DNA from: Hormiphora californensis | Taxonomy: Eukaryota > Animalia > Ctenophora | DNA: 64,000 nucleotides | Direction of reading: 5' to 3' | NCBI GenBank assembly: GCA_020137815.1 | Contig: CM035360.1 | Coordinates: 2,170,001 to 2,234,000, forward strand | Shown: piece after piece, positions 29,001-35,000 of the stretch | Numbering within the stretch: the first letter of the stretch is position 1 | How the letters are laid out: each line of letters starts with the position of its first letter | Made by a program: the position numbers and the translations under genes | The notes under the pieces: generated by a model | Seen by the model: only the letters and a program-made list of their open reading frames with translations | Databases searched by the model: none | What the model was told of the DNA's origin: nothing

Positions 29001-32000
29001 GACTCAAATATTATTAATAATATTATAGAACACCCTGTACCACTTACCTCTCAGTACTTACCAGATCATAACAACCCTCAAGAGAAGGTGGCTCTCTGTA
29101 CTTACCAGATCATAACAACCCTCAAGAGAAGGTGGCTCTCTGTACTTACCAGATCATAACATCCCTCAAGAGAAGGTGGCTCTCTGTACTTGTCAGATCA
29201 TAACAACCCTCAAGAGAAGGTGGCTCTCAGTACTTACCAGATCATAACAACCCTCAAGAGAAGGTGGCTCTCAGTACTTACCAGATCATAACATCCCTCA
29301 AGAGAAGGTGGCTCTCAGTACTTACCAGATCATAACAACCCTCAAGAGAAGGTGGCTCTCTGTACCTACCAGATCATAACAACCCTCAAGATTGGCCACA
29401 TTGATGCCTGAGTGAGATCGAGGTCGCGCAGCGACCGAGATCGATCTCACATCTATTATTCGCGGAGCGAGAATAGGATGCGATGGATCCAACCCTCAAG
29501 AGAAGGTGGCTCTCAGTACTTACCAGATCATAACAACCCTCAAGAGAAGGTGGCTCTCAGTACTTACCAGATCATAACAACCCTCAAGAGAAGGTGGCTC
29601 TCTGTACTTACCAGATCATAACAACCCTCAAGAGAAGGTGGCTCTCAGTACTTACCAGATCATAACAACCCTCCATGTTCCCCTCAAGCTGCTGCTGGGT
29701 GTGGGACCATCGCTCCCTCTCTTTAACCAGCTTCTCCCTTAGCGACTTGTTCTCCTGTTCGAGCCCTGTGTCCTAGAGAGAGAGAGATCAGGGAATTCAG
29801 ATAATGTCCTAGACCAGGGTTGTCATGGCTACCAGGAGTCCTGGTAGCCATGACAACAACACCGCCCTTTTAGGCGTTCTTAGTCTTTGAGCCTTCCTCA
29901 GACAAACAAGTTTATTTAAACTTAATTGTAATCAATTAAAACTTGTTAAAATTTACCGAATTGTTTGAGAGGGTATGCTCCAGTTGCCTATGAAGCTGCT
30001 CAATAGTCGTGTTCTTACTCTCCAGGAGGGTGTTCTGAACTTTCAACTCATTACACTGCTCTTCAACCCTCGCCTCCAGTTGTACCTCTAACTACAGAGA
30101 ATAAGGATTGGTTAATTAGCCGCATAATCAGTGAGGAAGTTCAGTTTTGTACAGCCGGAAGGAGAAAACTAAACTTCTTCTCTAACTAAAGAGATGGTGT
30201 TTTACACGTGGAGGGGGGCACGAAACATGCAGCAGTGATTGAGCAGTAGTGATTGAGCAGTAGTATGAAGGGCGGGAATAAATCGTGGCAATTGGAATAT
30301 CAGTGAATGTGAAATTATATCTTTACCTGAGTTCGGTTTGGTGTTCTGCTACCCGTACTTTGACATCCCGGTGACAAGGGTGGCTCCATTCCATTTAGAC
30401 CCTGCTCCGCGGCAGATAGGAGCTCAGTTGCCCTTTCTAGTTGTGTAACCAGCTGCGCCCGGTCATCCGAGTCTGGGAGTGGGAGGGAGTTTATGAGTCA
30501 TGGTACCCAGATCTGTGATGCTAAACCATTTAGCTGGCCAAATACTACGGAGCTAGCGTGGTAGCCATCCAGCTACAAGTTAAGTAGCTACTTGGACTTG
30601 AATTTCGATATGATCAATGCAAATGGAGAGTTGACTTACTGCGGCACTGTTGCTCCAGAAGAAGATCCAAAATAAGAGATACCGTGTGCTGGATATGTTT
30701 ATCTTCCCTGTGTGTTCTAACTAGTTTCCGCATCGTCTGCCGACCTCCCTCCGCCAATATGGCCTCGTGTAGAGTCGGTGAACCTGTGTAGATAGACGGG
30801 GATCAGAAAGATCATGTTGCATTGCATTTGTAGAGGGTTTTTGATAGAGCCTCAACAACATATCACAAGAACCAAACTATACCATGGATTTTATGACTAT
30901 GACCAGCTATCACACTTACTTTTGTCGGGATTGTTGGTTAGCAGGTTAAGCAGGATACGACCACCAAAGTTGTGAACGGTTGCCTGTTGAGTCGCGTTCA
31001 TAGCGTGCATGACATACCGAACCAGGGAGCTGTAGTCCAACCATGAGAAAACTGGGGGAGGGGGTGGTTAGAAAGATGGGGGGTTAGAGAGTGGGGGAGG
31101 GGGTGGTTAGAGAGTGGGGGAGGGGGTGGTTAGAGAGATGGGGGGTTAGAGAGTGGGGGAGGGGGTGGTTAGAGTGAGCTGGGAGATAGATAGTGGGGGA
31201 CTGGCGAGTGGTTAGAGAGTGGGAGATAGAGTGGGGGTGGTTAGAGTGAGAGTGAGAGAGAGAGAGAGAGAGAGAGAGAGAGAAAGAGAGAGAGAGAGAG
31301 AGAGAGAGAGAGAGAGAGAGAGAGAAAGGGAGAGAGAGAGCTTTTATATAGGTCAGTCTAAATTGTCAGTCATCAGTGTACCTGTTTGTCTAGATTGTCA
31401 CTTTCTCTAGGCTCCGTTCTCCTTACTCTCTGATAATTGGACACTACAATTATCATCTTGGGACGATATGTCTACATCGGATATTATTTCTGTTTTCACT
31501 TTATCATCCTTCATTCCCTCCTCTTCCTTTCCATTCTCACTCTCTATTCCCTCCCCTACCTTTCCATTCTCATCCTTCATTCCCTCCTCTTTCTTTCCAT
31601 TCTCACTCTCTATTCCCTCCAATACCTTTCCATTCTCACTCTCTATTCCCTCCAATACCTTTCCATTCTCACTCTCAATTCCCTCCAATACCTTCTCACC
31701 AGCCAGTTTCTCTGTTCCCTGCTCTACTCCTTCTGTTCCCTGCTCTACTCCTTCTGTTCCCTGCTCTACTCCTTCTGTTCCCTGCTCTACTCCCTCTGTA
31801 AACCAGTGTAGCCCACTAAGATGACTCCACATATCAGCCCCATCAAACCTGCTCCACTGCTCCACAATATACCTCGTCTTCCTCACATCCCCCTCTCCTA
31901 CCGGCATGAGACTCTCATAATGGGCCCCATCGTACGCCAAAACGAGAGGTGGCTGATCATCAGACAGAGATCCCCCGAAATAATCTCCCCTAACAACCGT

Positions 32001-35000
32001 TATCGGGCCATGTGACCTATACTCAGAGACGTTGAACACCAGAGCGTTCTTGCCCACACAATGCATTATCCCTAAGATCATGAGATCCCCAAAATAGTCC
32101 AACTCATACTGCCCATCACCTCGGAGCCGTATCCAGGCATCCCTCCACTCGTCCTCGGTGTAGAGATCGAGGAAGAATGCAGAATTCCGGGCTTGCCGCT
32201 CTGTCTCACTCATCCAGATGTCCCGGTAGAATTGGACAGACCGTGGGAAAGACTCCTGGAAACAGGTTCTATTGTTGATTTGATCGATAACCGATTCAAT
32301 GGAGCAGTTGCCATTCCCGTTGTTTGGTCGCCCTGGTTTAAGATTGATGTAATATTTCCGGGCCAGTTCTATACCCTGTTTCATTAAAGGATGTGTGACA
32401 ACCGCAGATTTGGGTGATAAAAATAATGATGATGACGATGAACCTGAATCAATATTTTCCTCTATAATTCGAAACCGTTTGACAGTTGTAAATGTTCTCT
32501 CTTCAGAGTTTTCATCTGATTCTGGGATCGTGCTGACATCAGGTTGACGGCGCTTCAAGCACGGTCTGGCACCAAGAATCGGTCGCTTAGTAACCATCTC
32601 TCCAAGTGGTTTCCTGTTTTCGCATGGCAACATTTCAGCTATTTCGTCGTCACCATGCAGCTCTTTGATAGATTCTCTGACTAACTCAACATCCGTCACC
32701 CCCAACGACCACATTGCTACGATTTCCACCACTTTTTCTAAATCGGTGGAGGATTTAGGGAGGAGGGGGTGGTAGGTTGCCCCGTCAAAACCCAAACAAA
32801 TTGGTACCTCCCGCGGTTCTTCGCCTCCACTCAAGCCAGTTGCAAGGAATACAGATACACCGTTTGTGTGCGATTCAGTAGCGCCAAACACCACAATAGG
32901 CCGTCCTAAACAGTGGGCAGCTGCTAGTTTTATAAATCTATCAAAGAATGGAATGAAACATGCGCCCGTGGAACGAATTTCAGCCCAGGAGTTTTTCCAA
33001 ACAGCCTCATCATACTGTCCCGGATATAAATCCGGATTTCCCCGGGCTATAGTCTCGGCAATATTACTCCAAATTATCTTGTAGTAGTTGGAGGAGAGGG
33101 CTAGTTTCCGCTGGGTACCTCCCCCACTATAATGATTCACAAAACGGACAACTGCGTCTATGAACCGATTGTTGTTTGCTGCCCTGCTAAATTGATGTCC
33201 CACTTTGGTGGAAATACCGAAACTTTTGGCTGCTGTTACCGACCGGTGCTCAAAGAAAATGTTCCCATCCTTGTCTGGCAGGATCATGGTAGTGCACTAG
33301 AGGGGAGAAATTAGGAGGTACAACTAGCACTAAACACATACACAAAGAGGGTTGTGGACAGTGAAAACAGGAAGTTTGGGTAATATCTTTCTCTCTCACT
33401 CCTCTCGCACCACTCTCTCTCTCTCTCTCTCTCTCTCTCTCTCTCTCTCTCTCTCTCTCTCTCTCTCTCTCTCTCTCTCACTCTCTCTCTCTCCCGCCCT
33501 TGCTCTCTCCTATCATTGTCTCCCTTACTCTCTACCAAAACATCGCTTCCAGGATGTGTGATGTGGTTATTTGAGGAGCAGAAGCATGGATTTAGCGCGC
33601 GCCGCAGGAGTGCAACATGTGCGCGGAACCTTGCGCAAGGAGCACCATGACAGTGTTATCGCGCCATCCGACATGATACTCTGTGGAGGACCCCGAAATT
33701 GCGACTTGCTGTGGGCAAATTGGCGGATAGAAATGAAATAGAGGGTTTAGGTAAGTCGAGATTATGTAATGTAGGCATATTCAGAACATATGGAACTGCA
33801 TTTTTACCCCACTATCTACAATTGTAGGTGCCCCCCCCCCACTAGATCCCTTGAAGTTCATTTGTCTCCAAATGATTCTTTCTCTTGTCCATCCTCTCTC
33901 GGCTCTACTCTCTTCACTTCTTTTCTAGTCTCTGTTACTGCAGTCAAGAGAGTTTAACCAAAAAGGATGAATGCAAAAGAGTTCTAGTTTGCTCTGATCA
34001 TTTGCATTTAAACATCCATTGGCACACTCAGCCCCCCCCCCCCCCCCCCCGCCACACGGATATTTCATCATGGAATAACGTGGTCTTTGTGTAGATCTAG
34101 AGCCCATCTAGAGAGCCGACAGTTAGTGCAGCAGATGAGCCCACATTTGACAACATGTTGTCAAAATGGGGGGGGGGGGGCTCACAGCTTAACTTATCAT
34201 TATGTAACTGACATGAATCATGATATAAAGCTTCTCTAGTACAACTAGACTCTATTTCTCAAATATGAAATATCCTAACAGAAGAGCGTGGAACTCCGAA
34301 AGATATAAATCGCACAGCTGACAGCATGAGCAACACAAGGGGTAAACAACAAAACAGGAAGTGGGCAATAAAACAAGGGGTAAACAACAAAACAAGGGGG
34401 TAAACAACAAAACAAGGGGGACAATAAAACAAGGGGCGTAAACAACAAAACAAGGGGATAAATAACACTGCGATTTACCTACTGGGATCACTCAACCAGG
34501 GGGCCACACACAGGGGGGAAGAGAAAAATGCATACACTTCCTACTACCACACCCAATAATAATAATATCCTTGTTTAGTGTTTACAGACTGTAATCATTA
34601 GTGAGGAAATAGTAAAATAATGTTGGTCACTTTGTCACATTGAATGTTTGCCACTTTGTCACATTAGATGTTTGTCACTTTGTCACATGGAATGTTGGTC
34701 ACTTTGTCACATTGAATGTTTGTCACTTTGTCACTACATTTGTAAATCACACTACTTACTGTTGGGCGCTGCGGTGATGATGGTAAGAAGTTTGCAGCAG
34801 GCTCCCAGGACTGGAGGGGTGGCAGCTTCAGACGTATCGAGTATAACTTCAAAGTGTTCGTGGGATACTATCACTTCTAGGTTCTCCACTGGGAAATAGG
34901 AAACATGTTAGATACATATTTGATCTCTGAAGGGTTCTCTACTGGGGAATAAGGGGAAACATGTTAGATATAAGATATTTGATCTCTACTAGTGTACAGC

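What the first reader, a model, noticed from the sequence alone, without database searches (positions are those of the whole stretch)
31407..33287. Intronless tandem-OTU deubiquitinase (pseudo plus active) nested on the same strand inside the Death-domain gene
Seen: host exons 34760-34888 and 30921-31051 join in frame (A|TT = Ile) and skip a 3.7-kb intron that holds this 626-aa ORF. The ORF has its own acceptor 9 nt before the ATG, and splicing the host exon into it is out of frame. OTU1 keeps A20/OTUD7-like elements (AHCLGRPIVV, PICLGFD) but lacks Cys/His; OTU2 has GNGNC and HYESL. Knowledge: OTU DUBs (A20, OTULIN) restrain Death-domain/NF-kB signalling, and OTU domains are also carried by some Helitrons, non-LTR elements and viruses. 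Inference: a domesticated mobile-element OTU or retrocopy that may form a co-transcribed adaptor-plus-DUB module, with the pseudo-OTU binding ubiquitin chains.
Basis: partly seen in the sequence, partly recalled or inferred. Interest (0 to 1): 0.78.

Follow-up and report, generated by a model that had tools for sequence, protein, structure and literature searches.

The report
Tamed transposon deubiquitinase in comb jellies
A comb-jelly gene inside another gene's intron encodes two OTU protease-like domains, one with its catalytic residues and one without; it is likely a ubiquitin-cutting enzyme tamed from a rolling-circle transposon, and its nesting is likely ordinary for these animals.

Summary
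A 626-aa unbroken ORF (33287-31407, minus) lies in a 3,708-nt intron of a Death-domain gene. A diverged spliced contig skips that intron at the predicted junction. The host matches a Pleurobrachia bachei model, so this is a ctenophore. Both halves model as OTU folds; D2 keeps Cys328/His456/Glu458 and D1 lacks them.

Six other tandem proteins share the layout. D1 and D2 each form one group with nearly matching trees, and both are under constraint. One lineage (P0001) keeps both active sites. The closest relatives are about 440 single OTUs, one fused to a Helentron RepHel, not A20/OTUD7. No RepHel lies in the window.

Best reading (0.6): an old domesticated Helentron-type OTU, duplicated once, with D1 turned into a non-catalytic module that probably no longer grips the ubiquitin tail. 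The adaptor-plus-DUB/NF-kB idea is unsupported: a related ctenophore has 2,357 nested genes, and no ctenophore NF-kB is known. Copy number, synteny, homolog taxa, expression and activity are untested.

The parts
31407..33287 (-). Tandem-OTU ORF, 626 aa, single coding exon
   Evidence: full-length homologs at 40-45% identity
32685..33257 (-). D1, pseudo-OTU (aa 11-201): Arg41 for Cys, Thr171 for His, His173 for Glu; Gly-Asp of the YFGD loop replaced; own invariant residues (N75, I76, R82, Y88, P89, R105, C110)
   Evidence: family HMM E 7e-40; VIA Z 10.5, rmsd 4.6, 144 aligned to yeast Otu2 and Z 10.4 to OTUD1; columns
32397..32684 (-). Low-confidence linker (aa 202-297), poorly conserved
   Evidence: pLDDT <50 for 214-295; 20% identity to L001
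31797..32396 (-). D2, intact OTU (aa 298-497): Cys328 (codon starts 32306), His456 (31922), Glu458
   Evidence: VIA Z 10.4, rmsd 2.9, 131 aligned to OTUD3; 51-68% identity to the six other D2s
31410..31796 (-). Acidic tail built of 21-nt and 33-nt tandem repeats; not shared in sequence by homologs
33297..33310 (-). Pyrimidine tract and AG acceptor 9 nt before the ATG (trans-splice site or end of a 5'-UTR intron; untested)
   Evidence: homolog locus L001 has a similar acceptor 24 nt before its ATG
33552..33801 (-). CpG-rich stretch, candidate own promoter or 5' region (inferred)
   Evidence: CpG o/e 1.02, highest of 15 bins in the intron
34760..34888 (-). Host exon upstream of the intron (6th of 17 modelled)
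30920..31051 (-). Host exon downstream of the intron (7th of 17 modelled)
26085..27085 (-). Host Death-domain exons (27085-26928, 26805-26716, 26223-26085)
   Evidence: P0172 = EP00116_Pleurobrachia_bachei, Death PF00531 E 3.8e-8

Best explanation
This is a conserved two-domain OTU gene nested in an intron of a Pleurobrachia Death-domain gene, likely domesticated long ago from a Helentron-type transposon OTU, and it is predicted to work as a deubiquitinase through its second domain while its first domain likely serves as a non-catalytic docking module. Shown: two OTU-fold domains, an intact Cys328/His456/Glu458 set in D2 only, no RepHel in the window, and a host mRNA (of a relative) that splices the whole gene out. 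Strongly inferred: the OTU doubled once before the seven known proteins diverged; D1 then lost its catalytic residues in the branch leading to six of them, sped up, and fixed its own residues. Inferred: D2 cleaves ubiquitin or a ubiquitin-like tail after Gly-Gly. Weakly inferred: D1 binds a partner or substrate rather than the ubiquitin tail; the gene has its own transcript, started in the CpG-rich stretch and capped by a spliced leader or a 5'-UTR splice at 33297; its place in the Death-domain gene is a landing site with no functional link.
For: Fold: both halves align to OTU structures at Z about 10.4; all 5 Foldseek PDB hits at E<=0.001 are OTUs. Catalysis: 112 of 113 single-domain relatives keep the Cys, 108 the His, 110 the Glu; 7 of 7 D2s keep all three. 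Origin: 444 relatives at E<=0.001; P0115 is OTU-DUF6570-Helitron_like_N-PIF1-endonuclease, the HLE2 layout of PMC11417382. Age and constraint: 6 other tandem proteins. D1 (90/80) and D2 (98/79) each form one group, with the same branching order except one weak node; a duplication within the window's lineage is rejected (p-AU 7.5e-6). Window versus L001: synonymous sites saturated (pS 0.71-0.80) while pN is 0.23 in D2, 0.44 in D1, 0.60 in the linker. Variable sites within four clusters: D2 6 of 756, D1 13 of 791, elsewhere 44 of 916. No RepHel remnant: P0115 hits the window only at the two OTUs. Precedent: Helitron-derived inactive multi-copy VTD DUB genes in insects (PMC9741609).
Against: Only 1 of 109 relatives scanned carries RepHel domains; most are unlabelled fragments. 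The tandem group sits apart from all Helitron-type singles by a 100/100 branch and the tree has no root, so the direction of transfer is not shown. The taxa of the six homologs are unknown; 'ctenophore orthologues' is inferred. Active transposons also keep OTUs under purifying selection. The protein has no Pfam OTU hit of its own. The fold model is middling (mean pLDDT 58.6, pTM 0.39, 6 sequences). PMC9741609 states that transposon OTUs had not been tested for activity.
Confidence: 0.6

Rival explanations
1. The ORF is still a transposon gene: the separate OTU ORF or cargo of a (non-autonomous) Helentron family, and the six homologs are other TE families rather than orthologues.
For: Family link to a RepHel protein; Helentrons encode OTU ORFs additional to RepHel (PMC4067079); single coding exon; sits in an intron; a small hairpin at 34120-34200.
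Against: No RepHel in 64 kb; no other copy of the intron's non-simple sequence in the window; no terminal repeats other than microsatellites among those listed; tandem clusters have 1-5 members, all full length, whereas single-domain clusters include truncated members; none of the 7 tandem proteins has the LRGG-type site found before 34 of 78 single OTUs.
Confidence: 0.15
2. It is an ancient cellular OTU subfamily kept in ctenophores, from which Helentrons captured their OTU; the direction is host to transposon.
For: The tandem group plus P0016 is cleanly separate from the transposon-type singles (100/100, branch 0.6); PMC11417382 treats HLE OTUs as ancient gene captures.
Against: No named cellular gene from another phylum was found among the 15 clusters looked up outside the first five homologs, apart from two similar uncharacterised eel loci. 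A coding region without introns contrasts with the 17-exon host. It would need loss in other animals.
Confidence: 0.12
3. First reader's module: nesting is selected so that the DUB is co-expressed with, and acts on, the Death-domain protein's signalling complex, with D1 binding ubiquitin chains.
For: Same-strand nesting in a Death-domain gene; OTU DUBs act on Death-domain pathways in mammals (recalled); TRAF/IRAK/IKK-like genes are reported in ctenophores.
Against: Nested genes are routine in this family (2,357 in 1,654 hosts, many parallel); no NF-kB in ctenophores; operons are not reported in ctenophores (PMC7986045); a host-OTU splice is out of frame; D1 has lost the YFGD Gly-Asp in 6 of 6.
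Confidence: 0.1
4. It is a retrocopy of an A20/OTUD7-type gene.
For: Best PDB sequence hit is OTUD7B (E 0.01 single sequence, 8e-4 profile); Cezanne chains are 4 of the top 5 Foldseek hits.
Against: Identity 12-20%; the domain is about 190 aa against about 280-350 for the A20/Cezanne chains and ties or scores higher with small OTUs; no zinc finger or UBA; far closer relatives (34-43%) are of the transposon type.
Confidence: 0.03

Closest known systems
Helentron (HLE2) OTU domains (PMC4067079, PMC11417382; P0115 here)
   Same: Same OTU subfamily by sequence (E 4e-25 to P0115); GNC, YFGD and HYE motifs
   Different: Doubled; free-standing; no RepHel, DUF6570 or endonuclease; no upstream LRGG site; first domain dead in 6 of 7
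Helitron-derived VTD DUB genes of insects (iVTD: CG32436, CG4669 etc.; PMC9741609)
   Same: DUB domain related to rolling-circle transposon DUBs, outside a transposon, in tandem copies, with loss of catalytic residues
   Different: Other fold (VTD, not OTU); insect copies are all inactive, while here one domain is intact; testis expression is known there, expression unknown here
Legionella LotA (PMC12501173)
   Same: Two OTU domains in one chain
   Different: Both LotA domains are active; bacterial effector with inserted OTU fold; only the P0001 lineage keeps both sites here; no homology test was run
A20/OTUD7 (Cezanne), OTUD1/OTUD3, yeast Otu2
   Same: OTU fold (Z 8-10.5)
   Different: 8-20% identity; no A20 zinc fingers, UBA or UIM; single OTU each
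Nested intronic genes of Hormiphora californensis (PMC8527503)
   Same: Whole gene in one intron, parallel to the host, in a genome with spliced-leader trans-splicing
   Different: None seen; this is an ordinary case of that arrangement

Membership tests
OTU-fold cysteine proteases | OTU fold | tested here: met
   D1 Z 10.5 (rmsd 4.6, 144 aligned, Otu2); D2 Z 10.4 (rmsd 2.9, 131 aligned, OTUD3), on a model of mean pLDDT 58.6
OTU-fold cysteine proteases | Catalytic Cys and His (D2) | tested here: met
   Cys328, His456, Glu458; kept in 7 of 7 D2s
OTU-fold cysteine proteases | Catalytic Cys and His (D1) | tested here: not met
   Arg41/Thr171; lost in 6 of 7 D1s, kept in P0001; D1 is filed as pseudo-OTU
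OTU-fold cysteine proteases | Cleaves ubiquitin or a ubiquitin-like protein | not testable with these tools
   needs an assay
Pfam PF02338 as a curated model | Score above gathering cut-off 23.3 | tested here: not met
   no hit at E<=1 for the protein; 2 of 6 tandem members hit weakly; 20 of 109 relatives hit at E<=0.01, 5 above the cut-off
Autonomous Helentron (HLE2) | RepHel (Rep + PIF1 helicase + endonuclease) ORF | tested here: not met
   P0115 hits the window only at the OTUs
Helentron, autonomous or not | Subterminal inverted repeats and 3' hairpin, T^T insertion | tested here: inconclusive
   the 25 longest of 189 inverted pairs are all microsatellite arms; one hairpin at 34120-34200; no second copy to define ends
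Helentron, autonomous or not | Dispersed multi-copy family | not testable with these tools
   no genome held; no second copy within the window
Domesticated transposon gene | Homology to a transposon protein domain | tested here: met
   P0115 OTU vs D2 E 4e-25, vs D1 E 7e-7; P0115 domains
Domesticated transposon gene | Purifying selection over long divergence | tested here: met
Domesticated transposon gene | Single copy at an orthologous position across species | not testable with these tools
   only one homolog locus was obtained, 1,954 nt long, too short for synteny
Domesticated transposon gene | Expression as a host transcript | not testable with these tools
   no RNA holder listed
A20/OTUD7 subfamily | Large inserted OTU with A20 zinc finger(s) | tested here: not met
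   about 190-aa domains, no zinc-finger hit
Nested intronic gene | Coding region wholly within one intron of a host gene | tested here: met

The most novel reading that the evidence does not exclude
A Helentron OTU was domesticated early in ctenophores, doubled, and has stayed inside the same Death-domain gene because the pair is one signalling unit: the dead first domain docks the enzyme onto the host protein, giving ubiquitin control of Death-domain signalling in an animal lineage without NF-kB.
Probability: 0.1. Interest if true: 0.75.

Novelty: new variant of a known kind. Interest (0 to 1): 0.45.

Why it matters
Domestication of rolling-circle transposon DUBs is proposed for the VTD fold, but my searches found no described OTU case and no ctenophore OTU study. 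The family holds a natural series, one lineage with two intact sites and six with one dead site, so the birth of a pseudo-enzyme domain can be tested directly. It would also give a first activity test for a transposon-type OTU, which PMC9741609 says was lacking.

Tried and rejected
No genome is held for the window, so copy number could not be counted. No RNA holder was listed. Run X1 gave no contig on the OTU ORF at 85% or 80% likeness; it is a diverged relative, so this says nothing on expression. The Hormiphora spliced-leader motif has 0 matches in the window. Pfam on 9 single host exons gave no Death or ARM hit; the Death call came from P0172. A search for long fused forms (1,179-3,365 aa) found none among 2,018 candidates; this is weak, since it also missed P0115. 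Viral contigs and prokaryote genomes gave no relative, so there is no support for a viral or bacterial donor at that sensitivity. The two-sequence D2 model was too poor to use (pLDDT 46). No other relative resembled P0115 beyond its OTU. The one-clade test for P0001 D1+D2 did not finish. The atlas look-up for D1 did not complete. I looked for a second same-strand nested gene in the window and found none: the intronless GPCR is not inside the RNase Z gene, and the 18998 ORF is not inside RFC1. A donor-like GTAAG at 33528 could make a 232-nt 5'-UTR intron, but about one such site is expected by chance in that stretch. No complex prediction was run, since neighbourhood alone is not a reason. Three look-ups of earlier findings were empty.
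Full report
Observation. The ORF runs from ATG 33287 to TAG 31409-31407 on the minus strand, 626 aa without a stop. The flanking host exons 34888-34760 and 31051-30920 join as A|TT across a 3,708-nt GT-AG intron. Seventeen exons from 38213 to 26085, all 16 introns GT-AG, give one open frame of 770 aa. Its last 241 residues match P0172 at 83% overall and 98% in the first Death exon. 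P0172 is EP00116_Pleurobrachia_bachei and carries a Death domain (E 3.8e-8). The window is therefore Pleurobrachia or a near relative. A 1,215-nt contig of run X1, about 81-87% alike and probably from a related species, joins 34760 to 31043 with 8 letters between, which is the predicted junction; it skips the OTU gene. A second contig joins the exon ending at 27860 to the first Death exon, the 70 unaligned letters matching 13+57. No single contig spans the host, so 'one gene' rests on the continuous frame. The acceptor 9 nt before the ATG is real, and splicing the host exon into it stops after 16 codons.

Is it an OTU? The protein has no Pfam OTU hit and only a weak PDB sequence hit to OTUD7B (E 0.01; 8e-4 with a six-sequence profile). 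The atlas gave OTU-containing clusters for D2 at 0.93 and 0.92, with OTU on about 20% of members. The AlphaFold model (mean pLDDT 58.6, pTM 0.39) shows two domains with the same element order and a low-confidence linker and tail. All 5 PDB Foldseek hits at E<=0.001 are OTUs. VIA-align places residues 8-178 on yeast Otu2 (Z 10.5, rmsd 4.6, 144 aligned) and 304-464 on OTUD3 (Z 10.4, rmsd 2.9, 131 aligned); identities are 8-20%. D2 has Cys328, His456 and Glu458; D1 has Arg41, Thr171 and His173 at those columns.

The tandem family. Five proteins of 514-673 aa matched at 40-45% identity over 92-99% of residues 1-500, among 7,999 candidates scored; a sixth (P0015) came from the profile-free library search. 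Of 171 proteins with the domain, 16 had two, which collapse to these six clusters plus the window. Their clusters have 5, 2, 4, 1, 1 and 2 members, all full length and none named. P0001 keeps GNC, YFGD and HYE in both domains; the other six have lost Cys, His and Glu in D1. In a tree of 74 of 127 domains (14 tandem, 60 of 113 singles; cluster mates and fragments under 160 aa left out), D1 and D2 each form one group (90/80, with P0016 among them, and 98/79). The branching order is the same apart from one weak node, with P0001 deepest; D1 branches are much longer, and two are flagged as long. Holding the window's D1 and D2 together is rejected (p-AU 7.5e-6). So one old duplication came first and the loss of catalysis came later, probably once. 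Against L001, synonymous sites are saturated (pS 0.71-0.80) while pN is 0.23 in D2, 0.44 in D1 and 0.60 in the linker. Within four clusters, substituted sites number 6 of 756 in D2, 13 of 791 in D1 and 44 of 916 elsewhere. D1 is thus constrained, not decaying. All six pseudo-D1s replace Gly400 and Asp401, which are 87% and 98% conserved in 121 catalytic-type domains, and they share new invariant residues such as N75, I76, R82, R105 and C110. From recalled OTU structures this loop lines the groove for the ubiquitin tail, so I infer that D1 docks something other than that tail. The taxa of the six homologs are unknown; the single locus obtained is 1,954 nt and shows no neighbours.

Origin. The library search found 444 relatives at E<=0.001, almost all with one domain matching D2 (best 150 listed). 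Of 109 scanned, 20 hit Pfam OTU at E<=0.01 and one, P0115, carries RepHel domains: OTU, DUF6570, Helitron_like_N, PIF1 and endonuclease. This is the HLE2/Helentron layout described in PMC11417382 and PMC4067079 (passages). D2 is up to 43% identical to the singles and 34% to P0115's OTU, far above cellular OTUs. Limits: one RepHel fusion is thin; the tandem group is split from the transposon-type singles by a 100/100 branch; and without an outgroup the direction is not shown. No RepHel remnant and no second copy of the intron sequence lies in the window. Viral contigs and prokaryote genomes gave no relatives.

Nesting and the module idea. Hormiphora californensis, of the same family, has 2,357 nested genes in 1,654 hosts, many parallel to the host, and a spliced leader on at least 56% of long reads (PMC8527503, passages). 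A lone acceptor just before the ATG, also seen 24 nt before the ATG of L001, fits trans-splicing or a 5'-UTR intron; neither is shown. No NF-kB orthologue is known in Ctenophora (PMC13042239, passage); TRAF-, IRAK- and IKK-like genes are reported (PMC11359984, passages); operons are not reported in ctenophores (PMC7986045, passages). Nothing here links the enzyme to its host beyond position.

Comparison and novelty. The nearest precedent is the set of insect genes with tandem inactive VTD domains related to Helitron DUBs, thought to be domesticated and testis-expressed; that paper notes that transposon OTUs were untested (PMC9741609, passages and whole Discussion). Tandem OTUs are known from LotA, with both domains active (PMC12501173, passages). 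Searches for ctenophore+deubiquitinase+OTU (1 paper, unrelated by its listing), Helitron+domesticated+OTU domain (2 papers) and tandem or inactive OTU (20 of 50 listed) showed no description of this family. The library lacks most subscription papers, the Pleurobrachia genome paper was not held, and I read no supplements; the Hormiphora annotation and the HELIANO OTU tree may bear on it. PMC11747439 (passages) added nothing.

Verdict. A real, old, constrained tandem-OTU gene, most likely a domesticated Helentron-type deubiquitinase with a repurposed dead domain (0.6). It is a new variant of a known kind. The nesting is ordinary and the signalling-module reading is unsupported (0.1). Interest 0.45.

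Noticed in passing
P0018, P0028, P0038, P0052, P0057 and others: A ubiquitin-tail mimic lies within 45 aa before the single transposon-type OTUs: [LMI][RQKST]GG in 34 of 78, exact LRGG in 18 of 78, against 0 of 89 in an equal window after the domain. This suggests self-cleavage of Helentron polyproteins by their OTU (inferred). One literature search (10 of 237 listed) did not show it described; PMC4067079 only speculates on subunit cleavage.
   Followed up: partly
window 33413-33534 and 31213-31340: (AG)n upstream and (CT)n downstream of the ORF on the transcribed strand are complementary over about 95-120 nt and enclose the ORF and its acceptor. They could pair in host pre-mRNA and hide the nested acceptor. 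Such runs are common (17 in the window) and L001 lacks one in its 264 upstream bases, so this may be chance.
   Followed up: partly
P0001 cluster (P0001, P0007-P0010): Both OTU domains keep GNC, YFGD and HYE and are 53% identical: a candidate double-active ancestral state.
   Followed up: yes
P0016: Single OTU grouping with the tandem family, His lost, followed by long charged repeats; possibly a paralogue or a transposon relic of the same lineage.
   Followed up: partly
P0017, P0165: Two similar 'uncharacterized' Anguilla anguilla loci carry this OTU type; likely unannotated transposon copies.
   Followed up: no
window 27521-27657 (-): Exon-like segment with AG and GT ends that breaks the host frame if included; the relative's spliced contig skips it.
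   Followed up: partly
window 38213-30640 (-): The host's N-terminal exons look helical-repeat-like by eye but have no Pfam match exon by exon; the P. bachei model covers only the C-terminal third of the 770-aa frame.
   Followed up: partly
window 40815-40905 and 34120-34200: Two DNA hairpins (-21.7 and -13.4 kcal/mol, no shuffle control); possibly small mobile-element remnants.
   Followed up: no
window 2687-3493 (+), 9700-17890 (-), 55159-56235 (-), 58340-58700 (+), 61100-62800: A Mos-like kinase ORF (name recalled; Pkinase E 2e-42), RFC1-like exons, an intronless rhodopsin-type GPCR (E 3e-23), RNase Z-like exons, and a tandem repeat of about 440 bp.
   Followed up: no
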